A DNA stretch of 64,000 nt from Singulisphaera sp. Ch08 (GCF_045290345.1 NZ_CP155447.1:693078-757077); one strand, 5' to 3'; shown: positions 30,444 through 61,992, counted from the first letter of the stretch. Program-made: numbers and translations. Notes: a model not told the origin generated them from the letters alone.

Positions 30444-30540
30444 GCAGCCTGGAAAGCCCATGTCGTCAGGCTTGACGCCATGCTCTCCGTCTTGAGGAAC
30501 GAGGTCGAGAAATACCGGAATTAGTAACGCTTCGCCAAAT

Positions 30541-30856: not shown

Positions 30857-33145
30857 TCAACTCGCGCCGGGCTTGGGGTTCGTCACACCGTTGGGAGTTG
30901 CCGCGGGGGGAGGGACGGCCATCGCTTCACGAGTCATCTTGTCGGCGTACTCCTCGAGCGACTTGGCCCCTTCAGCTTCGGCCAGGCCGAAGCCCGATTT
31001 CTCGGCGACCATCAGGCTGATGAGGAGCCCGAACAGGCCCTGCGCGGAATTGTCCGAGCCATGATGGGAATCGCCATTGGAGGAAGCGCCGGTGGTCCCG
31101 GACATGAAGACGCGTTGGGGGACCAACGGCTGGCTACTGTTGGCGAGTTGGTTGGCGACCTGGGTGAGCGCGTACAGCCTCGGATCGGAGAAGGACTGGA
31201 CCTTACGAAGCAGGACCGACGCTTCCGACAGGCCGATTTGGGCGATTTTCGAGGCTTCGCCCTTACCGGCAAGAGTGCGTTGCTCCGCCTCGGCCTGGGC
31301 GAGGATCACCATCTGCTCAGCCTGTTTGCGCGAGCGATCGAGTTCGGCCTGGGCCGTCACGACCATCTGCTCGGCCATTTTTTTAGCGCGGGCAAGGTCG
31401 GCCTCGGCGGCCTTGCGGGTCTTGGCCAGTTCGGCCTCTCCCTGGTTTTCGACGATCTGGATCTGCACTTTGGAGTTCGTCAGGCTCGTCTGCATGGTCG
31501 CTTGCGCCTGGGCGTCGTTGAGCGTCTGAAGGGTCTCGGCGGCGGCCCGTTGGCGCTGGTAGGTTTCGATCTGTTCGACCGAGAGCTGGCGCTGGCGCAA
31601 CTGCTCCAGCAAGGTTTCGATCTTGCCTCCCGCCTCGGCCGTATCCGGCTTGCCGATCAGGACGTCCACACACTCGATGTCGAACTGGCCGAACCGGGCC
31701 GAGAGGGTTTCTCGCGCCTCGCGCTGAATGTCGTCGCGGTCCTGCAAGAGCTGGAGCATGGTGCGCTTGTGGGCCACGTCGCGAAAGAAGGCGGAAAGCA
31801 TCGGGTCAAGGGTTTGCGTGATCAACTTCTTGACGTCGCCGAACCGCTGGATGACGTTCGGGGCCTTCTGATAGTCGATATGGACGACGACCGAGAGCGG
31901 CAACGTCGGCTCGTACGCATCCTTGGTGACGAGGTCGATCGAGCGCAGACTCTCGTCGTAGCGGTGGGTCTCGGTCCGGCCGGTGACCCAGTGCAAGACG
32001 AAGTTCGTCGTCGGGACCATCACAATACTGCCGGCATACGGGTTGAACCCGTACTTGCCAGGGCCGAGCGGCCGCTCCAAGACTCCGCGTTCCCCCTCGG
32101 CGACCCGCTCGCCGTGACGAAACCCGGCGCCCGAGACGTCCTGGCCGGTGCGCCCGTAATAGCTCACCACCACGCCCACAAAGCCGATCGGCACAACCGT
32201 CTTGGGTACCACCTCGACCGAGGCGAACCAGCGATTGATGAAATAGGTGCCGTCGGTCAGCGGCACGTACTGCCGCCCTCGATGGCCTCCCGCGGCGAGG
32301 AACGCCTCAGGGTCCTGGTAGTTATTGTGAAAATGCTTATCTTCGCGCCGAGTGCCGACCGCAGGCGCGATGATCTCGCCAGGGCCAAGGCTCGGTCCGT
32401 CCTGCACCGTCACAATCCCGAGACTATCGACGGTGATCTGCCGCTCGGGATGGATCGGGTCAGGCGCCAGGATTGGCGCACCGATCACGACGGGGTTGAA
32501 CCCATTCGACGCCTTCAGCTCGTTCTGCCAGCCGACGATCGTCTCCAGCTCGCGTCGCCCTTGAAATTCCAGCCGATAGGCCGCATCTTCGGTGATCACC
32601 ACGAACAAGGCGAGGTTGATCGCATAAACCCCCTCGCGAAGGATCATCCGCTGCCGACCGCGCTGGCCCAGGGGAAGGGCTTCCTCGCCCGGCGCCGTGA
32701 CCACATCGCCGATCAGGAACGCGCGTGCATCCTGAAAGTTGTTGCACCCCGCAACTCGCCCCAAAGTCTGGCTTGGCTCCAGAGGCTCGCCGTCACGAGC
32801 GTAGACATAGCCGATCTTCCCTTGAGGCACCGTCACCAGATTGACCCGATGGATCCGGTACTGCCACGCCCACAAGCCAAAATGCACGCCACCCCGAAGG
32901 AGGTCGGCCTGAAAACCCGCCTCACCCATCAGCGCCATCATCCGCCCCTCAGGGACCGATCCCTTGGGCGACCACAGCGTTTCCACGATCCCCACGCGGT
33001 TGTTCGGGATGTATCTCATCCCCGAAAACACCACCGTGGCGAACACGACCCCAAAGAACCCGACCACCAAGAACACGAACCAGTCCCCAGGAAAGAGTTG
33101 GGCCCAAAGCATTGGCCTCAGCCACATCCCTATTGCCGCGAACAT
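30857..33145 (-). CDS. Large flotillin-like protein with tandem SPFH/band-7 domains and a coiled-coil EA-rich region. It has an N-terminal transmembrane segment.
   Basis: The SPFH block reads ...RFGDVKKLITQTLDPMLSAFFRDVAHKRTMLQLLQDRDDIQREARETLSARFGQFDIECVDVLIG... and is followed by the flotillin-type coiled coil ...AELAKTRKAAEADLARAKKMAEQMVVTAQAELDRSRKQAEQ.... The transmembrane segment is MFAAIGMWLRPMLWAQLFPGDWFVFLVVGFFGVVFATVVF. An alternative start lies at 33196. The plus-strand ORF 31061..33280 is a shadow. Confidence 0.7.
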   Translation of the reverse strand: MFAAIGMWLRPMLWAQLFPGDWFVFLVVGFFGVVFATVVFSGMRYIPNNRVGIVETLWSPKGSVPEGRMMALMGEAGFQADLLRGGVHFGLWAWQYRIHRVNLVTVPQGKIGYVYARDGEPLEPSQTLGRVAGCNNFQDARAFLIGDVVTAPGEEALPLGQRGRQRMILREGVYAINLALFVVITEDAAYRLEFQGRRELETIVGWQNELKASNGFNPVVIGAPILAPDPIHPERQITVDSLGIVTVQDGPSLGPGEIIAPAVGTRREDKHFHNNYQDPEAFLAAGGHRGRQYVPLTDGTYFINRWFASVEVVPKTVVPIGFVGVVVSYYGRTGQDVSGAGFRHGERVAEGERGVLERPLGPGKYGFNPYAGSIVMVPTTNFVLHWVTGRTETHRYDESLRSIDLVTKDAYEPTLPLSVVVHIDYQKAPNVIQRFGDVKKLITQTLDPMLSAFFRDVAHKRTMLQLLQDRDDIQREARETLSARFGQFDIECVDVLIGKPDTAEAGGKIETLLEQLRQRQLSVEQIETYQRQRAAAETLQTLNDAQAQATMQTSLTNSKVQIQIVENQGEAELAKTRKAAEADLARAKKMAEQMVVTAQAELDRSRKQAEQMVILAQAEAEQRTLAGKGEASKIAQIGLSEASVLLRKVQSFSDPRLYALTQVANQLANSSQPLVPQRVFMSGTTGASSNGDSHHGSDNSAQGLFGLLISLMVAEKSGFGLAEAEGAKSLEEYADKMTREAMAVPPPAATPNGVTNPKPGAS

Positions 33146-33403
33146 GTTGCGATCTCGTCTGGCCCCGGCGTCATCGACGGGAAGATGCTGCCGCAAAGTT
33201 TTCCCAGTCCCCGCATCACCCCTAACTGCAACACGAAGGACTTGAGCCCGTTGGGGAGCATTCGTCCGACATCCCCATGATATTTACGAATATTTCCCGA
33301 ATAAGTGATCTTAGGTTTTTAGGAGGGACACCGCGGGTTGATCTGAAACCGAGGCGTCCCACCGGACCAAATCGCCAAATGACAACCGCGAAGGGTCCTT
33401 GGC

Positions 33404-34573: not shown

Positions 34574-34964
34574 CAGTCTTGATTGAATGAGGATGACGCC
34601 CAGCGTGGGGGCCACGCCAGGTTGAGGGTGAAGGTCGGCGTGTTCTCGATACGCCGGCAAGGAGTTTCGGCTCCGAGAGCGCTCGCGGAGCCACGCGACC
34701 ATTGTGGCCCAGTAGGCTCATGCCCCGCAACGCCCAACCAATCAGCACGACCACATCAAGCGGCCAATCCGTCACCACACGCGCCAGACGAACCACAAGG
34801 GGGAGCAAGTGGCCGATTCGGCATTGAAGGACAAAGCGGCGCGCCGATACAGAGGGCCAGACAATGGTGCTTTGACGCGCCCAATTCCCTGGGCAACCAC
34901 CGAGACAGTCGTCTCGTTGCCCGAGGGGGGGGTGTCTTCAGGATCTGATCAAGGAGGATCTCAG

Positions 34965-36272
34965 ATGTCGGTTGATCGCAAGGAGGGCCGCCGGACGAAC
35001 CATCGCGCGTTTCGGCCGACGCTGGAGCATGAGACGCTCGAAACACGCGTGCTGATGTCGGGGAAGACGTCAAAGTTGCCGGGAGCCGTCTTCCTGAGAA
35101 ATCCCAAGCCGGGAATCGCGTTCCAGAACAATAACCCCGAGTTCCTCTCGGCGGGCGCTCCTCGGTTCCCCGTCGCCCAGTACCCGCGGGGCAACAAGAT
35201 CGCGACCCAAACCGCCCACGGCGGTCAGAGTGTGATCGTCGCGGCTCCCGACGGCAGCCACTTCCGGATCAGCCTGACGCAGTTCATCCCCCCCGCCGGA
35301 CAAGGACAGTCGCAGACCGCATCGGGATCCACCGTCCCAGGCACCCAGAACCCGATCCAGGGGCAGGTCCCCGGAGCGGGCCCGGTCCAGCCGATCGGCA
35401 CGGTTCGCGCCTATGCCATGTCACGGGGACGAGTCGGCCTGATCATCGACGGCACGACCACCCAGTCCGAGCTCAACATCAGCCCTCAGCCGTTCCCCCA
35501 GCGCAAGGGCTACGCGCACAGCTTCGCCTATGGCCAGGCGAACCAGTCGAAGGTTCTCAACATCGGCCAGATCACCGTCAACAGCGGCCAGATCGGGGCG
35601 ATCCTCGGCTTTCACACCGCCGATCTGTCCGGCCCCTTGGTCTCCGTGGGCACAACCGCCATCGATCGGATCGCCTTCAACAACCTGCTGCCGGGCGCAT
35701 CGATTCAGACGAATGGCGACTTGAACACGCTTGATGTGCTCAACAACGTCAAGCTCGACCGCGGGCCAGGGATCGTCATCGGCCGCGACCTCAACCTGTT
35801 CAACGTCGGACAGGATGCAACCTTCCTCAACGGGGCGTCGCTCAACGTCGGCCGATTCCTCGGCGCGACCCCTCAACCCCCCAAGGGAACCGGCACGGGG
35901 TCGAACTTCCTGGCGCTCAACCAGGCGTTGCTCGGTACGGGTACGAGCACGTCCCTCCCCTCGCTCTCGGGATACATCCAGGGCGACCTCACGCTCGGTA
36001 GCGGCAGCATCTTCACAGCCGCCGCCGGGATCGCCAACAGCTCCATCATATCGATCAACGGTGTTCCATCGTCGACTCCCGCCGCGTTCCTGGTGAACGG
36101 CTTCGTCAACGCCCCTGATGCCGACCAGATTGCCATCCCCAACCTTCCAAGCGGGATTTTCAGCAACGTATTCAGTATCTCCCCCGAAGGCCAACTCACG
36201 GTCAACTTCAACATCGTGGTTCGGAACGGCTCAAATAACCCGAAGTTCGTCGACCTCAATCCCAATGCCTGA
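34965..36272 (+). CDS. Secreted repetitive G/S/T/N/Q-rich protein of unknown function.
   Basis: A strong SD AAGGAGG lies 8 nt upstream of the ATG. The N-terminus reads MSVDRKEGRRTNHRAFRPTLEHETLETRVLMSG (an RR...LExLExRxLxS motif). The remainder is low complexity and beta-rich. The minus-strand ORF 35421..36194 is a shadow. Confidence 0.5.
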   Translation: MSVDRKEGRRTNHRAFRPTLEHETLETRVLMSGKTSKLPGAVFLRNPKPGIAFQNNNPEFLSAGAPRFPVAQYPRGNKIATQTAHGGQSVIVAAPDGSHFRISLTQFIPPAGQGQSQTASGSTVPGTQNPIQGQVPGAGPVQPIGTVRAYAMSRGRVGLIIDGTTTQSELNISPQPFPQRKGYAHSFAYGQANQSKVLNIGQITVNSGQIGAILGFHTADLSGPLVSVGTTAIDRIAFNNLLPGASIQTNGDLNTLDVLNNVKLDRGPGIVIGRDLNLFNVGQDATFLNGASLNVGRFLGATPQPPKGTGTGSNFLALNQALLGTGTSTSLPSLSGYIQGDLTLGSGSIFTAAAGIANSSIISINGVPSSTPAAFLVNGFVNAPDADQIAIPNLPSGIFSNVFSISPEGQLTVNFNIVVRNGSNNPKFVDLNPNA

Positions 36273-36295
36273 GACCTCACGGCCTCAACGCATCA

Positions 36296-36348
36296 AAACC
36301 TCGGCCGCGGGCGACTGGACGCCCGCGGCCGAGGTTTCTTTTTTTTCG
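36296..36348. terminator. Bidirectional rho-independent terminator between convergent genes.
   Basis: The sequence AAAACCTCGGCCGCGGGCG actggac GCCCGCGGCCGAGGTTT is followed by CTTTTTTTTCG. It has an A-run on the 5' side, so it is functional on both strands. Confidence 0.8.
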
Positions 36349-36397
36349 TTTCGACTGAGCCTCGGCAACGGCCGAGATCCCCGGTTCACCGCAGGAA

Positions 36398-37324
<927 letters not shown>

Positions 37325-37525
37325 GGAGCCTGCTCTCTCATCTCGATGGAGTGCCTGGGAAGCACGCCGTGGGCCAACCGGGTTGCAACGTATGGCACAC
37401 GCCCTGAAACGTCTTGGGGGGCAGCCCCAGTGGGGCTGCGACATCCGAACTTGGCTTTTTTCTCACGACCTCTGTGTTCGATCGTCGGGCAGGCCTGCAA
37501 GCTGACCCAGGGGGGCCAGCCCCGC

Positions 37526-39823
37526 TCATTTCTTTGGCCCGGTCGTGTTGAGCGGCAAGATCACGCGAAGCATCGTGGTCTGATCGACTTGCGGTGTGCT
37601 GGGGGCATTCTCTAGCGCCAGCCGCGAGGAAGCCCGGTCGATCCGCGCCACGAGCATCGGCCGATCCAACTGGAGCAGGCCGGTCAGGTCGAGGTAGTTG
37701 AGGGTGTTGCTGGCCATCGCGGATTCCGTCGCCGAGGCCGCCACGGCTTCGTGGAACATCAGGCCGAGCAACAGGTCGGGCCGATTGATGGAGGCTCCAT
37801 TGTTGTTGTCGTAAAAGGGCTGCTTGGGGAGATAGTTATTGATCTTATCCCGGATGTGGCCCGACAACTGGCGGTCCTGGCTCAGCGCGACCCGAACGGT
37901 GGCCCCCGGCTCGACCTCCCCGAGCAGATAGATCTGCCGGTTGTAGGCGAGAATGGCGTCGTGCAGCGCGACTCCCACTCGGTTGGTAACGGCCCCCTCC
38001 AGCCGGTCAGGGCCGGCCGGCCGCAGGTCGGACTCGATCAGTGGGGTCGCGGGGCCAGGTCCGAACCAACGGGCCGTGAGACACTTGGTGCTCCAGATCG
38101 GGATGCGAACTCCTTCGAGTTTCTCGGCTCCGCCCGCGGGGAGATACTCGTAACCACCGCTGGAGAAGCTCATCTGCGTGCGGTTGCCCATCCCGCCGAA
38201 GCCGGCCTCGGGGACGCCGAACCAGCTCAACGTCACGTCGGTGCCGACCGGCAGGCGAGCGGGGGCGTCGTCCGGGCTCGCGGGTGAGTCGCGATCGAGC
38301 GGCAACGGAATCACCGACGCGTTGTAGTCGCGGTTCTGCGGGCTAAAGATATCGAGATACGTACTCCCCCGAATCAGGCCCGAAGCCGGGACGGCATTCT
38401 CGGGGCCAGGCCCCTGGATAACGTCGACGATATCGACCTTGTTGACTCGCAGCACGTTCCCTTTGACGACGTAGGCCGCGTAGTAGGCGAGCAGACTCAC
38501 CGTCACCACGATCAAGGGGAAGGTGATCCAGGTCAGCTCCATCCGCTTGACCACCTTCTTGAGAAAGAGGTAGTCTCCCGGCCCGATCAGCAAGATATAG
38601 AGGAAGATGAAGAAGGCGACCCAGCCGAACGAGATCAGCTTGACCCCCTGGAACTGCTCGAGCGACTCGCGCAGCTTGGTGGAGAGGTCATGCACTCCCG
38701 ACTGGTAGATTCTCCCGGTCCCGCCCATCACCACCGCATTGGAAGTGCTGGTGTCAACGTTCATCCGACGCAGGCCGATCGCCCGGACCCAGAAGAGGCC
38801 CCGGTCCTCCCAGCTCGAGAACGGTTTCTGATCGACGTCCAAGGCAATGAGCGTGACCCGGCCAAAGCCGTGCGAGCCGCGGACGACCAGCGGAGCGCCC
38901 ACCGCCCGGCTGAGGACCTTGCCTCCCCGCTCTTCGATCTCCTCCAGCTTCGCGACCATCACCGCCGCGCCGCTCGGGGCAATCGGCTTGGTCGAGCCGC
39001 TGGCGAAGGACTCGATTGCCCCCAGGTCGTTGATCCGTTGCTGGCCGGTGGGCAAGGCGGGAAGGATCGGCGTGAGCACACTGTCGCGCACGGCCTGCCA
39101 GTTGGCCCCGACCGCCAACACGAGGTGCCCCCCCCGACGGACCCAGTCGACCAAGGCCCGGCCCCGGAGGGCGTCGAGCGAGGCCATGACCGCGCGATCG
39201 TTCGTGTCGAGCACCACCGCGCGGGCGGCGTCGTAACCATACCACCGCCCCGGCAGATATCCCCCCGCCGCATCCAACCGGGCAATGACGGTGCCCCGGT
39301 CGGGCGTGGACTGATCGACGCTAAACCCAGGGAGGGTCGGGATCAGGTCGACCCCTTGCGGCTTCCCCAGGGTCAGCACCAGCGTTTCGTCCGCATGGAT
39401 CGCGTCGAACTTCGCCAGCGACGTCCCCGCGATCCGAGGCATCCGCAGCTTCTGATTCGGATCCGAGAGCCGGATGTCAAAGTCGGGATCAACCGTCCCG
39501 GGACGGGTGTAGGTCGTGAACCGCTGACTCTCTCCCGGCCCCAGGTCAATCGCCTGATGGACCGTGGTCGGCGTGTCGTTGTCGTCGGGAACGACCAACT
39601 CCATCGACCCCGTGAACCGCTGGTCGCCCGCCTTGAGCTGGACCCAGACCGGGGTCCACGATCCCACCTTGAACAGGTTATTCGAGGTGCCCGTGGTGAA
39701 CCCGACGCGCAAGTTTTCCACCTCGATCGGTGGCCGCTTTGGCGCTCCCCACCCGTTGGCGGGCAAGAGGCCAGCCAACGCCACGACCGCCGCCAACGGC
39801 CAACGTCCCAGACGAGGTTGCAT
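37526..39823 (-). CDS. Hypothetical 765-aa exported protein with two central transmembrane helices, possibly an ABC-transporter-associated (GldG-like) protein.
   Basis: It has a signal peptide MQPRLGRWPLAAVVALAGLLPANGWG and a central hydrophobic stretch LISFGWVAFFIFLYILLIGPG...LTWITFPLIVVTVSLLAYYAAYVV. It is codirectional with and upstream of the ABC ATPase. No catalytic motifs were recognised. The plus-strand ORF 38690..39907 is a shadow. Confidence 0.45.
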   Translation of the reverse strand: MQPRLGRWPLAAVVALAGLLPANGWGAPKRPPIEVENLRVGFTTGTSNNLFKVGSWTPVWVQLKAGDQRFTGSMELVVPDDNDTPTTVHQAIDLGPGESQRFTTYTRPGTVDPDFDIRLSDPNQKLRMPRIAGTSLAKFDAIHADETLVLTLGKPQGVDLIPTLPGFSVDQSTPDRGTVIARLDAAGGYLPGRWYGYDAARAVVLDTNDRAVMASLDALRGRALVDWVRRGGHLVLAVGANWQAVRDSVLTPILPALPTGQQRINDLGAIESFASGSTKPIAPSGAAVMVAKLEEIEERGGKVLSRAVGAPLVVRGSHGFGRVTLIALDVDQKPFSSWEDRGLFWVRAIGLRRMNVDTSTSNAVVMGGTGRIYQSGVHDLSTKLRESLEQFQGVKLISFGWVAFFIFLYILLIGPGDYLFLKKVVKRMELTWITFPLIVVTVSLLAYYAAYVVKGNVLRVNKVDIVDVIQGPGPENAVPASGLIRGSTYLDIFSPQNRDYNASVIPLPLDRDSPASPDDAPARLPVGTDVTLSWFGVPEAGFGGMGNRTQMSFSSGGYEYLPAGGAEKLEGVRIPIWSTKCLTARWFGPGPATPLIESDLRPAGPDRLEGAVTNRVGVALHDAILAYNRQIYLLGEVEPGATVRVALSQDRQLSGHIRDKINNYLPKQPFYDNNNGASINRPDLLLGLMFHEAVAASATESAMASNTLNYLDLTGLLQLDRPMLVARIDRASSRLALENAPSTPQVDQTTMLRVILPLNTTGPKK

Positions 39824-39939
39824 GATGCGCGTTCCTTGAAAATCGAGTCGAGACGAGACGAGCGGTCGCCAAAACGTCTCGTAGGCGGGATCCGGTCCAC
39901 CAGTTGAGAGCCTGGTAGACCGAGGTCTCCCCTACGGGA

Positions 39940-40266
39940 TCAAGGTTTCTCAGACGGGTCGCAAACGCAAGGCAAGGCGCGACACCCCGGACAGGCCGTC
40001 CCATACTTCTTCTGGACCGCCGCCTCGAGGTCGACCCCCCGGATATTGGCCAAAGTCACCAGCCACGCCAGAACGTCAGCCATCTCCAGGGCGAGTTCCT
40101 CGGTCGTGCCCGACCGCAACGCGGTCGCCAGCTCGCCGAATTCCTCGGTCAACCAGAGGAACGTGGCCGCATCCCCCCGCGCCTCGTCCTTCGCGCCATA
40201 CATCTCGCGGATCAGCCGCTGCAAGCTGCCGATCGTCAAACCACCTGCCGGTTGTTCGTTCATCAC
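39940..40266 (-). CDS. MazG-like nucleotide pyrophosphohydrolase domain protein.
   Basis: The translation reads ...IREMYGAKDEARGDAATFLWLTEEFGELATALRSGTTEELALEMADVLAWLVTLANIRGVDLEAAVQKKY..., the MazG EExxE...D pattern. Confidence 0.75.
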   Translation of the reverse strand: MMNEQPAGGLTIGSLQRLIREMYGAKDEARGDAATFLWLTEEFGELATALRSGTTEELALEMADVLAWLVTLANIRGVDLEAAVQKKYGTACPGCRALPCVCDPSEKP

Positions 40267-40564
40267 ACCTAGATCTTACAAAAGTCCTTAGCCCAAATGC
40301 AAATCCCAAACGATGCGCCTGGCCTGGCCCCCCCCTGTGACAAGCGAAGGGAAAAGAGCAGGCGCATTCTGTAGGCTTCGCTTCGGCCAACGACTTTGTT
40401 CAAATGTCCCGGCCAATCTTCCGGGCCGAATCGAGCCGATCGACGCGAACACGATGTCGCTGTAGAGTTTACGTATCGACTTCATCGGCCGCAAGAGCCG
40501 AGCCAGCCCCCAGAGGCAGAGGAATCCGTTCCTCATCGCGAACGATGGGGGCGAGGCCGGAGCG

Positions 40565-41944
40565 TCAGTTTTGCGGCCAGAGTGAATTGATGAGCTCCAC
40601 GGTGCGATCCACGAGGACTTGCCCCCCTTCCGGTCCGACAAGATTGCTCTCGGGGATGGCACTATAACCTCCGCCATGGACGGCGTGCTCGGTCGGCAGG
40701 TAGGAGCCTGGCCCAGCCAGCTGAATGAGGAAGGTTTGGATCGCTGGACTGCGGGCCTTCATCTGGATCCCGTACTCGGTGAACAGTTCGAAGACGTTCG
40801 TGGCGATGGCCACGTCGCCGAGCCGGATGACGTGGAGTTCCATGAGGAACGGGTCGATGGGGCCGGCCTTTTGCTGTTCGAAGCGGTCCACCACTTTCTG
40901 GTGCCAGCCCACCGTGCGCTGATTTTTCGGGTCTTTGGAGAGTTTTTCGACATTCGCCCTGGCCGCGGCGGCTTCCGACTCGGTGATAATTCGAGGGGGG
41001 AGCTTGATCGTCTCGACTTTATGGACCAGGGGGACGCCGGCGTTCTGTTCTTTACGGGCCCCCTCGTAGGCCTCATCCCAGGCCGCGACGATCCGTCGTG
41101 ACAACTCTTGCAGGCGGGTCAGGCCGCGGAGTGTTCGCATCCGTTCCTCGGCGAGTTTCCGATACATCAGGTGCGGCGACTGATCGCCCGCCGCGCCGGT
41201 CCAGGCCAGAACCAGCAGATCCTTGCCATGTTTCGCTCGCAAGGATTCGCGGACTTCGTGCCAGAAGTCGGCGGTCACAACCGAGAGTGATTCAACCTCC
41301 TGGGCCGGGCAGGCGATATTGATCGCCGTTGCGAGCAGTTTTCCTTCCGGATTCCAGAAGAAGAGGACTTCGACACCTTGATCTTCCGACCCTTCGATGC
41401 CCCGAAAGTCGGCCCGATTCGTGAGGCCATACATTTGGGCGTGGCCATCGGCATAGATCGCTCGCCGATTCTGGGCCACCACCGCATGCCCCAGCCCCCA
41501 GCCCGCGCGTGCTGGTTGGCGTGATTCCCAGGCCTTCACGGCCGCGTCGACGACCTGGCTCGCGAGAAACTCCGCGTACTCGGCCGGTTGCATCACGCCA
41601 TCCTTGGGGATGGCGTACTGCCCTTCCTTCATGACGGGCGCGGTGTGCGTGTGCGTGGCGTTGAGCACCAGTTTCTGACTATCGAGGTCGGGGAGCCGTT
41701 CCTTGACTCGCCGACGAACCTGTTCAAAGACGGCCGCGTCAATCGAGACCAGATCACAAGAGACCAGGACCGCCTGGTCGAGAACCTTGTCGCCATCCCT
41801 GGATTCCAAGGCCAGGGCCGTCGCCGTCACCGGACTCTCAACGTCCCGGGCGATCCGGGTCCGCATCTGCCCCGCAGCGCCACCGGTCGATCGGGTGTGA
41901 TGCTGACGGTCGCCCCTCCAACACGGAGTTCGGCAGACTGGCAT
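40565..41944 (-). CDS. Hypothetical hydrolase resembling neutral/alkaline ceramidase N-terminal-domain proteins. Its signal peptide and first strand lie in a different frame (41827..42039), so it may be a frameshifted gene.
   Basis: The main frame reads ...TATALALESRDGDKVLDQAVLVSCDLVSID...LNATHTHTAPV.... The adjacent frame encodes MLIANLSLPSFFARTVAAVVLVSSVTVGGG...LRVGGATVSITPDRPVAL, a typical family N-terminus. Confidence 0.4.
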   Translation of the reverse strand: MPVCRTPCWRGDRQHHTRSTGGAAGQMRTRIARDVESPVTATALALESRDGDKVLDQAVLVSCDLVSIDAAVFEQVRRRVKERLPDLDSQKLVLNATHTHTAPVMKEGQYAIPKDGVMQPAEYAEFLASQVVDAAVKAWESRQPARAGWGLGHAVVAQNRRAIYADGHAQMYGLTNRADFRGIEGSEDQGVEVLFFWNPEGKLLATAINIACPAQEVESLSVVTADFWHEVRESLRAKHGKDLLVLAWTGAAGDQSPHLMYRKLAEERMRTLRGLTRLQELSRRIVAAWDEAYEGARKEQNAGVPLVHKVETIKLPPRIITESEAAAARANVEKLSKDPKNQRTVGWHQKVVDRFEQQKAGPIDPFLMELHVIRLGDVAIATNVFELFTEYGIQMKARSPAIQTFLIQLAGPGSYLPTEHAVHGGGYSAIPESNLVGPEGGQVLVDRTVELINSLWPQN

Positions 41945-42153
41945 TCACCACCTCCCCCGACCGTAACGCTGGAAACCAGCACGACGGCGGCGACAGTCCG
42001 GGCGAAAAACGATGGCAGACTCAGATTCGCAATCAACATTCATGAGCCCTCACGAAGATAACTCTTCAGAACATCATTGAAAGTTTTCGAGATGAGACTG
42101 AGCGAGCCCAGCCAGGCCAAGCCCGCTCGCCGGGAGGCCTCTCCACAAGAGGT

Positions 42154-42480
42154 TCATGCCGGCTTGGCGGGCATGCTTCCTTCATCGGTTGGGAGCTTGG
42201 TCTTCACCGCGGCGGTGGGGCTGTGGCCGTTGGCGGCCACTTTTTCGGAGTCGGCGGCGGTGTCGACCATCTTGCCGAAGAAGTCGGGCATCTTGACGCC
42301 GCCGATATTCTCCATGATCTGGAGCACGGGGGGGAGTGTCTTGGCCATATTCTGGAGGAAACCGGCGGTGGCGCCCGTGCCGTTGGAGCCACCGTTCTCC
42401 CAGACGATGACCTTGTCGAACTTGATGTTCGAGATCGCCTGCGAGAGCGTTCGGAAGCGGAATGGTGGCCAGGCACTTAA
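42154..42480 (-). pseudogene. Duplicated 3' fragment of the flotillin gene (C-terminal ~100 codons plus stop region).
   Basis: The DNA at 42165-42475 is near-identical to 44785-45095. It encodes ...AAQAISNIKFDKVIVWENGGSNGTGATAGFLQNMAKTLPPVLQIMENIGGVKMPDFFGKMVDTAADSEKVAANGHSPTA, then a tail AVKTKLPTDEGSMPAKPA* that differs from the intact gene's tail. Confidence 0.75.
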
Positions 42481-42586
42481 AGAAGGCAAAGCGAGGAACC
42501 TGGACAATTCGTCGAGGTCAGCAGCCGACCATCCATTTTCGCTGAAACTCCCCGAGGCCCCAATTGAAGTGCCTGGCCACTCAATT
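42468..42586. repeat. E-family MITE-like repeat, copy 1 (~120 bp, 14 bp terminal inverted repeats).
   Basis: The sequence is AATGGTGGCCAGGCACTTAAAGAAGG...CCATCCATTTTCGCTGAAACTCCCCGAGGCCCCAATTGAAGTGCCTGGCCACTCAAT. The ends GTGGCCAGGCACTT and AAGTGCCTGGCCAC are reverse complements. Confidence 0.8.
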
Positions 42587-42708
42587 CGCTCCTCTTCTTG
42601 AAGGTGCAACGAATGGCAAGGGGATTCGCGGAAACCCACCGGGGAATGACCTCTTGGCCCTCCTCACATCTTCGGTACTCAACGGCTCGCCAGGAAGACT
42701 GCTCTGCA

Positions 42709-43131
42709 TCACCCCTGTGAAGAGGTTCTCCCACTCGACCGGCTCGATTCTTCTCTCGGGCTAGCCTTTGCTGGTCGAGTCGAGCTCGCAGATCCGTCGG
42801 AAGCCCGCTTCGGCTTCGTCGCCGCCTCGCCGATCGGCAGGAACCTGACCTCGACACGTTGTCCCAGCGCGGCCGCAACGCGCCGGAGCATCGAGAGCGA
42901 GTGCCCATCGTAGTCCGCTTGCTCAATCCTTGAGATCACCGAGGCTTGGGTGCCAACCTTTTGAGCGAGTGCACGGGTCGAGAGCCCGGCTTCAGTACGC
43001 AGTCGATTCAGCTCGACTCCGATTTCCAAATCGGCACACGTCCTATCGAACGACGCGGCCCGCTCGGGGTCACCACCGATGTACCCGTCGATCAGGGCTT
43101 GCAGGCCTTTGGACTTTGCTCGCGATGGCAT
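42709..43131 (-). CDS. HTH XRE-family antitoxin (HigA-like).
   Basis: The translation reads MPSRAKSKGLQALIDGY...LNRLRTEAGLSTRALAQKVGTQASVISRIEQADYDGHSLSMLRRVAAALGQRVEVRF (helix-turn-helix). The start codon lies 4 nt after the toxin stop. Confidence 0.7.
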   Translation of the reverse strand: MPSRAKSKGLQALIDGYIGGDPERAASFDRTCADLEIGVELNRLRTEAGLSTRALAQKVGTQASVISRIEQADYDGHSLSMLRRVAAALGQRVEVRFLPIGEAATKPKRASDGSASSTRPAKASPREESSRSSGRTSSQG

Positions 43132-43135
43132 CGGG

Positions 43136-43507
43136 TTACTCCTCCGGTTGGAACGTGTGCCGCTCGGGATCGGTGATAAACTTCGCGACACGGGCTTTGG
43201 CCAGAGCGATTTCCTTGGGTGGGATGATTCGTTCCTTGGCGAAACCGTGGGTCACGACGACAGCTTCCTGCCCGTGGAAGGCATAAAGTAATCGGAGGTT
43301 CACCCGACCGGATTTGACCCGCAACTCATAAATATCGTCACCTAAGTTTTCGACATACGGCCGGCGCAGTTCGTGACCATGATTGCCAAGAATGACCAAG
43401 GCCGCGAGGCAACGCTCTTGCGATTTCCGATCGAGAGAGTTCAGCCACAACCACAAGGGAACCGAGCCATCTTCCTCCTGATAGATTCTGACTTCGGTTT
43501 GCGGCAT
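43136..43507 (-). CDS. HigB-like / RelE-ParE superfamily toxin (phage Gp49-like killer protein family).
   Basis: The translation starts MPQTEVRIYQEEDGSVPLWLWLNSL, with the family pattern ...GHELRRPYVENLGDDIYELRVKSGRVNLRLLYAFHGQEAVVVTHGFAKE.... The toxin lies upstream of the antitoxin, as in higBA. Confidence 0.7.
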   Translation of the reverse strand: MPQTEVRIYQEEDGSVPLWLWLNSLDRKSQERCLAALVILGNHGHELRRPYVENLGDDIYELRVKSGRVNLRLLYAFHGQEAVVVTHGFAKERIIPPKEIALAKARVAKFITDPERHTFQPEE

Positions 43508-43613
43508 CGGCCCGATTCCCCAACTCCTTCTTTCAACTCACAAATTGTACGCAATATTGCGATCAAGCCAAGGAACCCGGGGGCCATTTCTTCTTTGCTA
43601 CTGCGAACCATGC

Positions 43614-43740
43614 GGAATAGTGGCCAGGCACTTAAAGAAGGTAAAGTGGGAAACCTGCATCAATCATCAAGGGCGGCAACCGACCATCCATTTTCGCTGA
43701 AACTCCCCGAGGCCCCAATTGAAGTGCCTGGCCACTCAAT
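43614..43740. repeat. E-family MITE-like repeat, copy 2.
   Basis: The sequence is AATAGTGGCCAGGCACTTAAAGAAGGTAAAGTGGGAAACCTGCATCAATCATCAAGGGCGGCAACCGACCATCCATTTTCGCTGAAACTCCCCGAGGCCCCAATTGAAGTGCCTGGCCACTCAAT. Confidence 0.8.
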
Positions 43741-43892
43741 ACCGCCCCGGTGCACCTCGCCAGGCGAGCCTGGCAGGCCTGCAAACCTTCTCGGAGGCGG
43801 TCGTCATCGTGAGCCCTGTTCGGGCTTGGCAATCCCAACGAGAAGCGAGAAGTGACCTATCCTGAGGAAACTCAAACAAGAGAGATCGCACA

Positions 43893-44414
43893 ATGGCCGG
43901 TCCGGTTCGCAAGATGTCCGAGGTCATGCTGAAAATGGCGGAACACATCCTCCGTAAGTCCGCCGAGGACACCTCGGACGAGGCGGCACATGCCGCGCTC
44001 TTCTTCGCCAACATCGCCTGGAACGAGTGCGTCGGGATCGACAATCCCCGGAATCACCACCGCAAAATCTGGGAAACGTTCGAAGCCTCGAACCCCTCAT
44101 TCTGGAACGAGTTGAAGTCAAACAACACGGACGCCCTGATCGACGATCTCGTCCGTTACAAACAGGCCCACTACCCCGAGGATCGACGCCGTATTCTCAT
44201 ATGCGGCATGATGCCAAACGGGAACATTCGGGTCGAATGGTTGCCCACGGCCGCTCCCGGGGTCGATCCCAAGTGGGAATTGCAGTTGTACGGGCTGGTG
44301 AGGACCGGCGACCAACCGGGGGCCATCCGCTTCCTGCGAAAGACGCGGGGCCTGTCCCGCAACGAGGCGATGAAGCAAGTGGCGGCAGTCGCCACCGGGC
44401 TGGGGATCAAGTAG
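43893..44414 (+). CDS. Hypothetical protein (173 aa), cargo ORF of the micro-island.
   Basis: It is an intact ORF between E2 and E3 with no recognisable motifs. The translation reads MAGPVRKMSEVMLKMAEHILRKSAEDTSDEAAHAALFFANIAWNECVGIDNP.... Confidence 0.4.
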   Translation: MAGPVRKMSEVMLKMAEHILRKSAEDTSDEAAHAALFFANIAWNECVGIDNPRNHHRKIWETFEASNPSFWNELKSNNTDALIDDLVRYKQAHYPEDRRRILICGMMPNGNIRVEWLPTAAPGVDPKWELQLYGLVRTGDQPGAIRFLRKTRGLSRNEAMKQVAAVATGLGIK

Positions 44415-44592
44415 AATCAGGCATTCAGGACCGTGAGCGCGGAAGGGAACGGCGGTGGGACGACGGCGACAGCGACGCGGCAAATCCAAGGGCAGGTTCT
44501 TCCTGGAACGCGGCGGGGTCGAACTGCAACTCTATACCCTGAATATGTTCTTGCTCAGCGGCCTGTTCAGCGAAAGCTACGCCAGGAGCCGG

Positions 44593-44749
44593 AATGGTGG
44601 CCAGGCACCTAAAGAAGGTAAGAGGGAAACCTGGACAAGTCGTCAAGGCCGGCAGCCGACTATCCATTTTCGCTGAATCTCCCAGAGACCCCAATTGAAG
44701 TGCCTGGCCACTCAATCTGAATCCCAATTGAAGTGCCTGGCCACTCAAT
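44593..44749. repeat. E-family repeat, copy 3, with a tandem duplication of the terminal 26-mer.
   Basis: The sequence GGAATGGTGGCCAGGCACCTAAAGAAGG... ends ...CCCAATTGAAGTGCCTGGCCACTCAATCTGAATCCCAATTGAAGTGCCTGGCCACTCAAT. It abuts the flotillin stop at 44768. Confidence 0.8.
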
Positions 44750-44767
44750 CGAGTCTCTCCCGATGGT

Positions 44768-46465
44768 TCAGGACGGCTTGGCGGGCCGGCTCCCCGCATC
44801 GGCGGCGAACTTGGGTTTGGAGTCGGGGGCCGGGACCGGGGCGCCAGCCCTCGCGGTGGGGCTGTGGCCGTTGGCGGCCACTTTCTCGGAGTCGGCGGCG
44901 GTGTCGACCATCTTGCCGAAGAAGTCGGGCATCTTGACGCCGCCGATATTCTCCATGATCTGGAGCACGGGGGGGAGTGTCTTGGCCATATTCTGGAGGA
45001 AACCGGCGGTGGCGCCCGTGCCGTTGGAGCCACCGTTCTCCCAGACGATGACCTTGTCGAACTTGATGTTCGAGATCGCCTGCGCGGCGGTCTGCGAGAG
45101 CGTGTCGATGTGTTCGAGCATCAGCAGTTGGAAGGCTTCCTGCGAGCCGCCGCAAGCGGAGACGATCTCACGGAGTCCCTCTGCCTTCTTGGCAAGGATC
45201 TCGTAATTGCCACGGGCCTCGGCTTCGAGCTTGGCGAAGATCGCCTTGGCGTCGCCCTCGGCCTCGATCCGCCGGCGCTCGGCCGCGGCCTCGGCTTCGA
45301 CGATCACCTGCGCCTTCTTGGCCTTGGCGACGGCTTCGAGTAGGGCCCGCTGTTCGGCCTCGATCTTCTCGGCCTGGGCCAGCGCGGCCTTGGTCTGGGC
45401 ACGGAAGGCGGCCTCCTCGACGCCGGCATCAGCCTCGCGCCGCTTGGTCTCGCCGATCTGGAACGCCTCGGCCTGCTTGAAGGCGAGGTCGGCATTCGAG
45501 GCGGCGATCTTCGCCTTGGCCTCGTTCTCACCGCTGATCGCCTGGGCGTCCGCTTCGGCGAGTTTGATCCGCATCGCGCGCTCGGCGAGCTTAACGCTGG
45601 CCTGCTGCTCGAATGCGGCCGTCTCAACGCCGATCTTTTCTTCCTTCAGCAACTCGGCGACCTGGACGGCCCGCTCACGCTCGGCCCCCTTGGTCCCGAT
45701 CTCGCGGAGCTTCTCGGCGTTCGCGACCTCGATGGCCTGCAACTGCTTCGCCTTGGCCACGCCGATCGACCCATATTTCTGCTGCTCGGCGACATCGATC
45801 TCGGCCTGATGAATCGCGGTGCTGGCCGCCTTACGGCCGATCGCCTCGATGTACCCCGAGTCGTCGGTCAAGTCGGTGATGTTGACGTTGATCAGCACCA
45901 GCCCGATCTTCCGCAGTTCCAGCTCCAGCGAGTTCTGGATGTTCTCCAGGAACTTCTCACGATCGCGGTTGATCTCGTCGATCGACATCGACGCGATCAC
46001 CTGGCGAAGCTGACCGAAGATCAGGTCGGCCGCCTGGGCGCTGACCTGATCGCGACTCAGGTTCAAGAGCCGGATCGCGGCGTTCTGCATCACCTCGGGC
46101 TCGGTGCCAATGGCGACGGTAAAGACGCTCGGAACATTCACCCGGATATTCTCGACCGAAAGCGCCCCACGCAGCGGGATCTCGATCTGGATCGGCTCCA
46201 GCGCCAGGTAGTCATAGTCCTGGAAAATCGGAAAGACGAGCGTTCCACCGCCGTGAACGCAAGTGGCCGACTTCGCCCCTGTCCCCACGCCCCACTTGAC
46301 CAGCACCTTGTTGGAGGGACAACGCTTGTAGCAACGCAGAGCCGTGGTGACGACCCCGAAGACGGCCACCGCGAACAACGCGGCGCCGACCACCGGCCAC
46401 CAACCTGAGCTATGCGTCTGATTGACCAGATTTAACTCAGCAACGACAAACGAGAGCATAATCAT
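44768..46465 (-). CDS. Flotillin (FloT/YuaG-like SPFH/band-7 protein).
   Basis: It has an N-terminal transmembrane segment (MIMLSFVVAELNLV...GWWPVVGAALFAVAVFGVV), an SPFH block (...LVFPIFQDYDYLALEPIQIEIPLRGALSVENIRVNVPSVFTVAIG...) and long EA-rich coiled coils. The plus-strand ORFs 45207..45809 and 45809..46408 are shadows. Confidence 0.85.
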   Translation of the reverse strand: MIMLSFVVAELNLVNQTHSSGWWPVVGAALFAVAVFGVVTTALRCYKRCPSNKVLVKWGVGTGAKSATCVHGGGTLVFPIFQDYDYLALEPIQIEIPLRGALSVENIRVNVPSVFTVAIGTEPEVMQNAAIRLLNLSRDQVSAQAADLIFGQLRQVIASMSIDEINRDREKFLENIQNSLELELRKIGLVLINVNITDLTDDSGYIEAIGRKAASTAIHQAEIDVAEQQKYGSIGVAKAKQLQAIEVANAEKLREIGTKGAERERAVQVAELLKEEKIGVETAAFEQQASVKLAERAMRIKLAEADAQAISGENEAKAKIAASNADLAFKQAEAFQIGETKRREADAGVEEAAFRAQTKAALAQAEKIEAEQRALLEAVAKAKKAQVIVEAEAAAERRRIEAEGDAKAIFAKLEAEARGNYEILAKKAEGLREIVSACGGSQEAFQLLMLEHIDTLSQTAAQAISNIKFDKVIVWENGGSNGTGATAGFLQNMAKTLPPVLQIMENIGGVKMPDFFGKMVDTAADSEKVAANGHSPTARAGAPVPAPDSKPKFAADAGSRPAKPS

Positions 46466-46498
46466 AACAACTTCACTCGTTATAAAATTCGATCGGGC

Positions 46499-47140
46499 TT
46501 ATTCAGGAAAAGGGGCCGGCTTGAAGATCGCATCCTGCGGGGCGACCACCTCCACAATCTGTTCGTCGATGACCCGGCTGACGACGACCGGATCGCCCGT
46601 GCGAAGCGAGGGGCCGGGTGTGCGAGCGAGAACCTCGATCGTTCGCCCTTGAATCGGCAGCGTGATCTTCCCCTCGCCGCCGCCATTGGCCGGGATCCGA
46701 AGGTAGACCGTCGCCCCCAGCCCGACCGATTGCGCGATCCGCACCGTGCCATCGGAATTGAGTTTACGAAGCAACCGCAGGGCATACCCCAGTAGCGAGA
46801 CGGTCACGACGCCGGTCGCCGTGCCGACGAGCACCGCCACGGTCGCGTTCGGCTTCGCCTCCAGCGCCGTGAGCCCGCCGATCCCAAAGAAGGCCAGGAA
46901 CGAGACGATCGCCTGAAAGGTGAAGATCCGCCCAAGTTCCAGGTGGTGGCCGTGGTCGTACCCACCCTCGATTGAGTCGGCAGAAGCGTCTTCGGGCAAA
47001 TCTGCGTCGAACTCGGCGTCCCCCAGGTCGCCGATGATGCCGCCGAGACCTTCGGACCCGAGCCCCACCAACGACAGAGCCAGGCGCAAGAGAAGAATGG
47101 TCCCGCCGATCGTCGCGCAGATCAGAAAGAACTGATACAT
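46499..47140 (-). CDS. NfeD-like (YuaF/YqiJ) membrane protein, flotillin partner.
   Basis: The translation starts MYQFFLICATIGGTILLLRLALSLVG (TM), followed by a C-terminal OB-fold-like region ...VYLRIPANGGGEGKITLPIQGRTIEVLARTPGPSLRTGDPVVVSRVIDEQIVEVV. It lies 33 bp upstream of the flotillin start, the classic nfeD-floT operon. A GGGAGGG lies 5 nt upstream of the ATG at 47138-47140. Confidence 0.75.
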   Translation of the reverse strand: MYQFFLICATIGGTILLLRLALSLVGLGSEGLGGIIGDLGDAEFDADLPEDASADSIEGGYDHGHHLELGRIFTFQAIVSFLAFFGIGGLTALEAKPNATVAVLVGTATGVVTVSLLGYALRLLRKLNSDGTVRIAQSVGLGATVYLRIPANGGGEGKITLPIQGRTIEVLARTPGPSLRTGDPVVVSRVIDEQIVEVVAPQDAIFKPAPFPE

Positions 47141-47548
47141 AATTCCCTCCCAAAGGGTCTGCGAACTCATCGGCCGCGGATCACCGACAGGATTCACACT
47201 CTCTCATCCTACACGACAGCCGGCCGGCTTCAACAAGTTGTTCCAGCGGCAACACTAACACAACAATTCACAACCAATAATTAATACGTTGTTCCATCAA
47301 TTCACAGAATCGGCTTGATCCTGCCACCATCCCGAGCTTTGGCAGGCTGGACTCGACCCGCCCTCAGTTCTATTCGCCGGCTTTCACCAAAAATTGGTGA
47401 GCCCTCCTGTTGCAGACGCGGTCGCCAACACCAGGGGATCAAGGCGAAACCGCCACTCAGGACCGTGGACCAAGAAGGGGAACGATTGACCAGCGCCCCC
47501 GAAGTGGCCACAATAACAAACCAACCGTCCTGTTTTGTGAGAGCGCCG

Positions 47549-61927: not shown

Positions 61928-61992
61928 GCTGCCGCCTCATTGCGCGGATGCGAAGGAACCCGGAATCGATCGAAAGCAAAAAAAGAAGAAAA

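What the first reader, a model, noticed from the sequence alone, without database searches (positions are those of the whole stretch)
42154..45100. Integrase-less micro-island at the flotillin 3' end, flanked by a ~310 bp direct duplication of the gene end.
The last ~310 bp of the flotillin gene (44785-45095) occur again at 42165-42475 as a truncated minus-strand fragment with near-identical DNA. Only a few differences are visible, for example TTTTC versus TTCTC. The fragment then diverges into a different C-terminal tail (...AVKTKLPTDEGSMPAKPA versus ...ARAGAPVPAPDSKPKFAADAGSRPAKPS). Between the two copies sit a HigB/HigA-like TA pair, an orphan 173-aa ORF and three E repeats. This layout is what an element integrating into the 3' end of a gene produces when it brings a replacement gene end. 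The divergent tail suggests the displaced copy came from another allele or strain. No integrase or recombinase is present, so either the element is a decayed remnant or mobilisation is in trans, or it arrived by homologous recombination.
Basis: seen in the sequence. Interest (0 to 1): 0.75.

Follow-up and report, generated by a model that had tools for sequence, protein, structure and literature searches.

The report
Duplicated flotillin gene end beside repeat-bounded array
The flotillin gene end really is duplicated around a toxin-antitoxin pair in this Singulisphaera genome, but it looks like ordinary recombination stacking two alternative downstream arrangements, not a new self-inserting island.

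Summary
Window 42212-42443 equals 44853-45084 (231/232 nt). Both edges are eroded, and the 5'-truncated copy has its own diverged tail and stop codon. The source is Singulisphaera sp. Ch08.

- S. acidiphila has an empty site, but the Ch08-specific block is 4.25 kb (40512-44757). It also holds the floT fragment and a frameshifted extra ceramidase-like paralogue.
- Another organism (L104/L105) has the same array 18 nt after its floT stop: same spacer, orthologous first and last E repeats, and higBA 89% identical. Its middle module differs, and no floT fragment follows within 2.6 kb. The array is therefore old and shared, and the duplication is not an intrinsic feature of it.
- A third relative (L092) has a floT end directly followed by the ceramidase paralogue, collinear with window 42443..40564.
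- No recombinase gene was found among the long ORFs between 23 and 58 kb.
- The "orphan" ORF has more than 800 homologues.

Best reading: two alternative floT downstream arrangements were stacked by recombination. The 232-nt core was then kept identical by gene conversion (1/232 versus 23/75 mismatches, p=9e-15). The order of events is unresolved. Interest is modest.

The parts
46499..47197 (-). nfeD-like membrane protein, first gene of the nfeD-floT pair
   Evidence: Weak YqiJ_N hit. It precedes floT in nearly all of about 85 related loci. It is 85% aa identical to S. acidiphila.
44768..46465 (-). Full-length flotillin (floT/YqiK-type SPFH protein, 565 aa) with the 'long' C-terminal tail A
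   Evidence: Band_7 E=4e-26. 94% aa identity to S. acidiphila. 92-97% nt identity along the gene, with no break at the duplication boundary.
44750..44767 (.). 18-nt spacer between the floT stop codon and the first E sequence
   Evidence: A nearly identical 18-nt spacer precedes the first E repeat in L105. The first 15 nt also resemble S. acidiphila.
44717..44749 (.). E3p: truncated extra copy of one E end (27 nt plus 6 nt)
   Evidence: Similar tandem partial E starts occur in L105 at 2079-2145. They are consistent with slippage at short ATTSAG repeats (inference).
44588..44716 (.). E3: ~128-nt repeat with 14-20 bp terminal inverted repeats (GTGGCCAGGCAC...GTGCCTGGCCAC)
   Evidence: It is the positional orthologue of L105 Ea.
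44424..44580 (.). F: ~160-nt segment, 70% identical to a sequence upstream of nfeD in S. acidiphila
   Evidence: E=3e-10. A conserved short peptide frame is also visible. Meaning unknown.
43893..44414 (+). 173-aa conserved protein of unknown function (V5E97_02700), not an orphan
   Evidence: 803 homologues at 60-77% identity. No Pfam, NCBIfam, PADLOC or PHROG hit. AF2 pLDDT 85, with no PDB fold match. Homologues sit in variable regions, one inside a composite transposon.
43612..43740 (.). E2 repeat, in the divergent region between higB and the 173-aa ORF
   Evidence: L105 keeps only its last ~45 nt.
43136..43507 (-). higB-type toxin (Gp49/RelE superfamily, 123 aa)
   Evidence: PF05973 E=5.5e-19. 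NCBI name RelE/ParE family toxin. The higBA module is 89% nt identical to L104/L105.
42709..43131 (-). higA-type antitoxin (XRE HTH, 140 aa), starting 4 nt after the higB stop
   Evidence: HTH_31. The exact 140-aa product is on record.
42458..42585 (.). E1 repeat. Its outer end, plus 4 filler bases (42454-42457), abuts the truncated floT copy.
   Evidence: It is the positional orthologue of L105 Ec.
42154..42453 (-). 5'-truncated floT 3' fragment with the 'short' tail B and its own stop codon. The identical core is 42212-42443.
40565..42039 (-). Extra ceramidase-like paralogue (V5E97_02680) with a 1-nt frameshift near 41875
   Evidence: Ceramidase_alk. 86% aa to L092, 83% to S. acidiphila, 81% to Ch08's own second copy, which is the true orthologue of the S. 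acidiphila gene. Frameshift shown.
40512..44757 (.). Whole block present in Ch08 but absent from the S. acidiphila locus
   Evidence: blastn collinearity: window 47236..44758 = L050 5222-7696, and 40511..34631 = L050 7850-13673.

Best explanation
**What it is.** Two alternative arrangements found downstream of floT in this genus are stacked one after the other in Ch08. No dedicated integrase is involved.

**Arrangement A (shown).** Full-length floT with the long tail, an 18-nt spacer, then a small recombinase-less array of modules separated by ~128-nt E repeats that carry terminal inverted repeats: E3p/E3, then F plus a 173-aa gene, then E2, then higBA, then E1. This array is lineage-typical. 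Another organism carries it at the same nucleotide position, with orthologous first and last E copies and the same higBA, but a different middle module.

**Arrangement B (shown).** A floT end followed by a ceramidase-like paralogue, as seen in relative L092. In Ch08 only its last 300 nt of floT plus the frameshifted ceramidase gene survive. They are joined 4 nt beyond the outer end of E1.

**How they were joined (inferred).** A piece of a B-type locus was joined to the distal end of the resident array. The likely route is one homologous crossover on the mazG side and one illegitimate join at E1, or a deletion running out from E1 into a second floT copy.

**What happened since (inferred).** Gene conversion from the functional gene has kept the central 232 nt of the fragment identical. 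Both edges, where flanking homology runs out, have diverged: a 12-nt deletion at one end, and a 27-nt indel with 31% mismatches at the other.

**Role of the E repeats (inferred).** Homology with the other organism breaks exactly at the end of E3 and inside E2. The E repeats therefore look like portable homology and hairpin break points where modules are swapped.

**Likely function (inferred).** higBA probably acts as an ordinary addiction or stress module. The fragment and the ceramidase copy are probably non-functional.
For: - Duplication and its anatomy.
- S. acidiphila lacks 40512-44757 while both flanks stay collinear.
- L105/L104 show the same tail type (89% identical by my count from the alignment), the same 18-nt spacer, an E at the same base and higBA at 89%. 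E3~Ea and E1~Ec. The middle module differs, and no floT sequence follows Ec in the remaining 2.6 kb.
- L092 is collinear with window 42443..40564 (82%). That shows floT-ceramidase adjacency in a relative.
- The ceramidase copy is an extra, frameshifted paralogue.
- Divergence is heterogeneous: 1/232 versus 23/75 mismatches, Fisher p=9e-15. S. acidiphila differs at 14 of the same 232 nt.
- Tail A, not tail B, shares the long form and the post-stop sequence with S. acidiphila and L105.
- No integrase or transposase domain among the long ORFs scanned between 23 and 58 kb.
Against: - The order of events is not resolved. A single-crossover (Campbell-type) insertion of [floT end A + E array] into a floT-B/ceramidase locus gives exactly the same topology.
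- Counting events on the four known loci gives about four events for either model.
- Over the last ~47-57 nt, by my count from the alignments, tail B is no further from the S. acidiphila tail (8/47) than tail A is (9/47). That does not mark B as foreign.
- A donor with ceramidase followed by mazG has not been seen.
- Gene conversion is inferred, not observed.
- Contig L092 starts within 2 nt of the truncation point of the Ch08 fragment. This is unexplained. It could mean the truncated unit is older or recurrent.
- E was found in only two organisms, so its genome-wide behaviour is unknown.
Confidence: 0.5

Rival explanations
1. A small integrase-less element [floT 3' end A + 18 nt + E array] entered a resident floT(B)-ceramidase-mazG locus. 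It did so by a single homologous crossover in the conserved floT 3' segment, or through an integrase acting in trans. It restored the gene with its own end and displaced the native end B downstream.
For: - The topology fits exactly: full gene, element, truncated copy, then downstream gene.
- floT-ceramidase adjacency exists in L092.
- floT is unusually conserved (92-97% nt versus 84.8% genome ANI), so it makes a good recombination anchor (PMC11279305).
- Over the last ~50 nt, tail B is slightly nearer to S. acidiphila than tail A is (my count).
Against: - The orthologous array in L105 has no displaced fragment in the 2.6 kb after it.
- Tail A, the spacer and the array look lineage-typical.
- The model needs an extra earlier event to put tail B and the ceramidase gene into the Ch08 lineage.
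- It also needs a circular intermediate joining E1 to floT.
- A crossover alone does not make the two copies identical, so gene conversion or a near-identical donor is still required.
- No integrase domain among the long ORFs scanned at 23-58 kb.
Confidence: 0.3
2. A purely local duplication. When the E array was first inserted, or later, a ~350-nt stretch (truncation point to stop + 18) was duplicated in place. The centre has since evolved in concert with the gene, while the unprotected edges of the non-functional copy decayed. No second allele is involved.
For: - Both edges of the repeat are eroded and the centre is pristine.
- Tail B aligns with the Singulisphaera-type tails, not with the L092 tail.
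Against: - Tail B is not closer to tail A than the S. acidiphila tail is (my count).
- Both indels are in frame and the stop codon is kept. That suggests tail B evolved inside a working gene.
- The ceramidase flank shared with L092 is then unexplained unless it is ancestral and was lost in S. acidiphila.
Confidence: 0.1
3. E repeats are sites of a dedicated cassette-exchange system, comparable to integron attC sites or pdif modules, served by an unlinked recombinase. The floT fragment plus ceramidase gene is one more captured cassette.
For: - Modules of about 1 kb are separated by ~128-nt imperfect palindromes that are 88-89% alike.
- One module is a toxin-antitoxin pair.
- The middle module differs between two organisms, with breakpoints at or inside E.
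Against: - E shows no attC core (GTTRRRY/RYYYAAC) and no 28-bp Xer-type site (read).
- Genes lie in both orientations.
- No E follows the ceramidase gene.
- No recombinase domain among the long ORFs scanned at 23-58 kb.
- E was not found in the two exact terminal-repeat-pair scans (GTDB representatives, JGI metagenomes), in the viral scan with one 20-nt E-end motif, or in the blastn of the block against PLSDB plasmids.
- Partial tandem E copies look like slippage, not precise site-specific exchange.
Confidence: 0.08
4. Assembly artefact: a collapsed or chimeric repeat in the hybrid assembly.
For: The genome is a Unicycler hybrid assembly (PMC11279305).
Against: - An independent short-read contig (L004) matches 43711-44882 exactly. 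It ends 30 nt into the repeat, as expected for a true two-copy repeat.
- The two copies have different, individually coherent flanks, each matched in other organisms.
Confidence: 0.02

Closest known systems
e14 / phage 21 integration into icd of E. coli (an element carries a replacement 3' gene end; the displaced end stays as a pseudogene)
   Same: An intact gene, then inserted DNA, then a 5'-truncated copy of the gene end with sequence differences, in direct orientation.
   Different: Those elements encode their own integrase and use a short core site. Here no recombinase was found, the array is old and shared, and the orthologous array in another organism lacks the displaced end. The e14/icd facts are from my own knowledge; papers were listed but not read.
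Orphan C-terminal modules of Rhs, CdiA and T6SS effector loci ('C-terminal displacement'; e.g. the PMC5361080 title, not read in full)
   Same: A main gene is followed by a fragment made of a piece of the conserved region plus an alternative variable end and its downstream gene. The proposed cause is recombination in the conserved segment.
   Different: floT is a membrane scaffold protein, not a polymorphic toxin. Its tail is a short, poorly conserved stretch, and there is no immunity gene logic.
MITE, ERIC or Correia-type small palindromic repeats, and MITE-bounded composite structures
   Same: ~128 nt with 14-20 bp terminal inverted repeats and a strong hairpin (z = -2.8 to -4.6), intergenic, with several copies delimiting genes.
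   Different: No target-site duplications are visible. No copies lie elsewhere in the 64-kb window or in 1.08 Mb of related loci. No matching transposase is known. The copies are positionally orthologous between organisms, so they did not transpose recently.
Integron cassette arrays without integrase (CALIN) and pdif modules
   Same: Short modules, including a toxin-antitoxin pair, separated by similar imperfect palindromes of about 120-130 nt.
   Different: The core motifs are absent, gene orientation is mixed, and partial tandem copies occur.
Type II HigBA toxin-antitoxin systems
   Same: The toxin gene comes first (Gp49/RelE-fold family), followed 4 nt later by an XRE-HTH antitoxin.
   Different: Nothing unusual. 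Activity was not tested.

Membership tests
Integrase-mediated integrative element targeting a gene 3' end | Encodes, or lies next to, a tyrosine or serine recombinase | tested here: not met
   Pfam scans of the island ORFs and of the long ORFs between 23 and 58 kb found no recombinase or transposase domain. Both flanks are syntenic with S. acidiphila.
Integrase-mediated integrative element targeting a gene 3' end | Direct repeats (attL/attR) at both ends of every integrated copy | tested here: not met
   Ch08 has the 232-nt repeat. The orthologous array in L105 has no floT sequence in the 2.6 kb after its last E.
Integrase-mediated integrative element targeting a gene 3' end | An empty site in relatives that corresponds exactly to the element | tested here: not met
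   The S. acidiphila gap spans 40512-44757. That includes the fragment and the ceramidase gene, not only the DNA between the repeats.
MITE | Terminal inverted repeats and small size | tested here: met
   A perfect 14-bp inverted repeat, extendable to about 20 bp, in a ~128-nt unit.
MITE | Target-site duplications flanking each copy | tested here: not met
   The flanks of E1, E2, E3, Ea and Ec share no duplicated bases (read).
MITE | Many dispersed copies, and a parent IS with the same ends | tested here: inconclusive
   No copies outside the locus in the 64-kb window or in the 103 loci then held (1.08 Mb). No exact hits in GTDB representatives, JGI metagenomes, viral contigs or PLSDB. The rest of the Ch08 genome could not be searched.
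Integron cassette array / CALIN | attC sites with RYYYAAC...GTTRRRY cores and an unpaired central spacer | tested here: not met
   E ends read CGGAATGGTGGCC...GGCCACTCAAT. There are no AAC/GTT cores, and the stem is a continuous 14-bp helix.
Integron cassette array / CALIN | Cassettes co-oriented relative to the sites | tested here: not met
   The 173-aa ORF is on the + strand and higBA on the - strand, while all E copies are direct.
HigBA type II toxin-antitoxin | RelE-fold HigB/Gp49 toxin gene upstream of an HTH-XRE antitoxin gene in one operon | tested here: met
   PF05973 E=5.5e-19 and HTH_31 E=2.6e-9, with a 4-nt gap between the genes.
HigBA type II toxin-antitoxin | Toxicity that the antitoxin neutralises | not testable with these tools
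   Needs expression experiments.
Flotillin (FloT/YqiK) with NfeD partner | SPFH domain protein of about 500-570 aa preceded by an nfeD-like gene | tested here: met
   Band_7 E=4e-26, plus an NCBIfam FloT model hit below its cut-off. nfeD is adjacent in nearly all related loci.

The most novel reading that the evidence does not exclude
The E repeats are recombination sites of an undescribed cassette-exchange system, served by an unlinked enzyme. It is anchored at the 3' flank of floT in Singulisphaera. It swaps about 1-kb modules (toxin-antitoxin pair, small membrane protein, the 173-aa family) and can capture neighbouring gene ends.
Probability: 0.08. Interest if true: 0.7.

Novelty: new member of a known kind. 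Interest (0 to 1): 0.3.

Why it matters
If the best reading holds, this is a clear worked example from a little-studied phylum. It shows how a very conserved gene end and short palindromic repeats let accessory modules pile up and be exchanged without any dedicated recombinase. It also shows how gene conversion can make an old gene fragment look like a fresh duplication.

There is a practical warning too: a near-identical gene-end repeat flanking a toxin-antitoxin pair is not in itself evidence of a mobile island. A new biological principle would emerge only if the E repeats proved to be true recombination sites.

Tried and rejected
- **E outside this locus.** Exact terminal-repeat-pair scans of GTDB genomes and JGI metagenomes found nothing. 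Neither did a scan of viral contigs with one 20-nt E-end motif or blastn of the 4.25-kb block against PLSDB plasmids. nhmmer with E profiles found E only in Ch08 and L104/L105.
- **Rfam.** Only sub-threshold chance hits.
- **E relic in the S. acidiphila floT-mazG spacer.** A resemblance is visible by eye, but it is not significant: 52-62 of 500 shuffles score as well for the two best-matching copies, and nhmmer finds no hit. Dropped.
- **Other truncated floT copies.** None in about 85 genome loci or in 10 metagenome contigs.
- **E ends versus nearby IS ends.** The Tn5-like IS elements next to related loci have different ends.
- **Diversity-generating retroelement.** Rejected. The locus has no reverse transcriptase, and the tail differences include indels.
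- **Look-up of the window's floT protein.** Failed, probably because the annotated start differs. The source genome was identified through the 173-aa ORF instead.
- **afdb50 fold library.** Unavailable.


Full report

Yes. Window 42212-42443 and 44853-45084 are direct repeats with 231/232 identity. The one difference is 42244 T versus 44885 C.

- Upstream (in gene orientation), homology continues to 42453 if the fragment carries a 12-nt in-frame deletion between two CTGCG repeats (read).
- Four filler bases follow, and then repeat E1.
- Downstream, the two tails are clearly homologous but diverged: 52 matches, 23 mismatches and a 27-nt in-frame indel. Each tail has its own stop codon, and about 15 similar bases follow each stop.
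- The difference in divergence between core and tail is far beyond chance (Fisher p = 9e-15).
- A Logan contig identical to the window (L004) matches 43711-44882 exactly and stops 30 nt into the repeat. That is what a k=31 assembly graph does at a genuine repeat, so this is not an assembly artefact.

**2. Source and gene content**

The 173-aa ORF and the ceramidase-like ORF are exact matches to V5E97_02700 and V5E97_02680 of Singulisphaera sp. Ch08. That genome is a 10.77-Mb chromosome described in PMC11279305.

- The full gene is a flotillin (Band_7) preceded by nfeD.
- The toxin-antitoxin pair is a typical higBA. The toxin comes first (Gp49/PF05973), followed 4 nt later by an XRE-HTH antitoxin of 140 aa.
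- The "orphan" ORF is not an orphan. It has 803 homologues at 60-77% identity, usually 172 aa.
- That ORF has no family, sequence or fold match.
- Its homologues lie in variable regions. One sits inside a composite transposon bounded by two identical 1685-bp Tn5-like IS copies.

**3. The E repeats**

- E is about 128 nt long, with a perfect 14-bp terminal inverted repeat that extends imperfectly to about 20 bp. It folds into a long hairpin (z = -2.8 to -4.6).
- There are three full copies, 88-89% alike, plus a truncated fourth copy next to E3.
- No target-site duplications are visible (read).
- E has no attC-type or Xer-type cores (read) and no Rfam match.
- No copies lie elsewhere in the window.

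**4. Comparison with relatives (the decisive part)**

(a) *S. acidiphila DSM 18658 (L050).* It is collinear with window 47236..44758 (nfeD-floT) and again with 40511..34631 (mazG-like gene, a 765-aa gene and beyond). Only 164 bp lie between these blocks. Ch08 therefore has an extra 4.25 kb, 40512-44757. That block holds the E array, the floT fragment and the ceramidase-like gene.

(b) *The ceramidase-like gene.* It is an extra paralogue.
- Ch08 has another copy (V5E97_04825) that is 87% identical to the S. acidiphila gene, which lies elsewhere next to a sulfatase gene.
- The window copy is only 83% and 81% identical to those two.
- It carries a 1-nt frameshift near 41875.

(c) *Contig L092 (SRR23595544).* It carries a floT 3' end, a spacer and the closest ceramidase paralogue (86% aa). 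It is collinear with window 42443..40564 at 82%. So "floT end followed by this ceramidase" is a natural arrangement in a relative.

(d) *Contigs L104/L105 (SRR30854914/15).* I found these through 90%-identity cluster mates of HigB and HigA. Reading along L105:
- a floT end with the long tail (89% identical to the Ch08 full-length tail, my count);
- the same 18-nt spacer, and an E repeat starting at exactly the same base;
- a 97-aa small protein with hydrophobic stretches, in place of F plus the 173-aa ORF;
- degenerate and partial E copies;
- higBA at 89% nt identity;
- a last E, itself interrupted by an unrelated ~160-nt element inserted at TTAA;
- then unrelated DNA and trpD.

No floT fragment follows in the remaining 2.6 kb. 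E3 is most like the first L105 E, and E1 most like the last. The array was therefore inherited as a unit and is older than the split between these organisms. Homology between the two arrays breaks exactly at the end of E3 and inside E2, so module exchange happens at E.

(e) *Other relatives.* None of about 85 floT loci, and none of 10 further metagenome contigs, has a second floT end. The gene after floT differs in almost every relative. One MAG has a different HigB_toxin/HTH pair there and another has a reverse transcriptase.

(f) *Recombinases.* No recombinase or transposase domain was found among the long ORFs scanned between 23 and 58 kb.

**5. What this means**

The locus combines two downstream arrangements that exist separately elsewhere:
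- floT(long tail)-E array, as in L105;
- floT end-ceramidase, as in L092.

Both lie between flanks shared with S. acidiphila.

The long tail and the post-stop spacer of the full-length gene are shared with L105. In structure they are also shared with S. acidiphila. I therefore take the full gene plus the array as resident. The fragment plus ceramidase pseudogene is then the remnant of the other arrangement, joined next to the outer end of E1.

The perfect 232-nt core needs explaining. S. acidiphila differs from Ch08 at 14 of those 232 positions. Two copies whose tails differ by about 30% cannot have a 0.4%-diverged core under a common clock. Gene conversion from the functional copy accounts for the pattern, because it fails near the edges where flanking homology ends. 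That fits the pristine centre, the 12-nt deletion at one edge and the diverged tail at the other. This step is inferred, not shown.

**6. What remains open**

In it, an integrase-less element carrying a replacement gene end enters a floT-ceramidase locus by a single homologous crossover. I rate it 0.3 against 0.5 for the stacking model.
- It needs one more prior event and a circular intermediate. It is also not reflected in the L105 array.
- On the other hand, the few substitutions in the last ~50 nt do not mark tail B as foreign.
- A purely local duplication followed by edge decay is a weaker third option.
- L092 begins within 2 nt of the point where the Ch08 fragment is truncated. By my rough estimate, chance would place a contig end within a few bases of that point well under 1% of the time. 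It may mean that sample also has a branch there. I could not test this.

**7. Novelty**

Every component is of a known kind: higBA, small palindromic repeats, a displaced gene-end fragment, and gene conversion between direct repeats. The E family and the 173-aa family are undescribed, but that is unremarkable in Planctomycetota. The one reading that would be truly new is E as the site of a cassette-exchange system, and I give it about 8%.

Noticed in passing
L092:1-30 (compared with window 42440-42453 / 45084-45107): The Logan contig carrying the floT end plus ceramidase in a relative starts within 2 nt of the point where the Ch08 floT fragment is truncated. This may reflect an assembly-graph branch at the same position in that sample.
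   Followed up: partly
window 44424-44580; L050 4889-5046: A ~160-nt segment (F) between the 173-aa ORF and E3 is 70% identical to a sequence upstream of nfeD in S. acidiphila. There it lies near a Tn5-like IS. A short conserved peptide frame (RRGKS...L.TLN..LLS..FSESY) is shared.
   Followed up: partly
window 41827-42039 and 40565-41944: The ceramidase-like gene is split by a 1-nt deletion in a G-rich run near 41875. It is either a pseudogene or a sequencing error, and it is annotated as a 459-aa protein.
   Followed up: yes
L105 2255-2413: A different ~160-nt element with 13-bp inverted ends (CCCGGATTATTCAC...) is inserted at a duplicated TTAA inside the last E repeat of the related array.
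   Followed up: no
L005 3337-9906: A homologue of the 173-aa ORF lies in a composite transposon bounded by two identical inverted 1685-bp Tn5-like IS copies. It sits with an ADP-ribosylglycohydrolase, DUF6930 and an ion-channel gene.
   Followed up: partly
L002 11982-12810; L001 4641-5993: In other relatives the gene directly after floT is a different toxin-antitoxin pair (HigB_toxin PF09907 plus HTH) followed by long hairpins, or a reverse transcriptase (RVT_1). The floT 3' flank is variable across the family.
   Followed up: partly
window 1700-1850, 6100-7430, 10600-13080, 21220-23290, 30520-30750, 59150-61930: The window holds several other families of short dispersed repeats (70-250 nt, 72-99% identity). 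One example is 11694-11814 versus 23011-23131, inverted, at 99%.
   Followed up: no
window 30857-33196 (-): A second, unrelated SPFH/Band_7 protein (779 aa) is encoded 11.6 kb downstream of floT.
   Followed up: no
window 42154-42639 (-): An open frame of 161 aa starts upstream of E1, reads through the whole repeat and continues in frame into the floT fragment. Expression is unknown, and the exact product is not in the protein collection.
   Followed up: partly
L050 2061-3599: S. acidiphila has a Tn5-like transposase and about 1 kb of non-coding DNA upstream of nfeD, where Ch08 has tetR and other genes. Both sides of nfeD-floT are therefore variable between the two species.
   Followed up: partly
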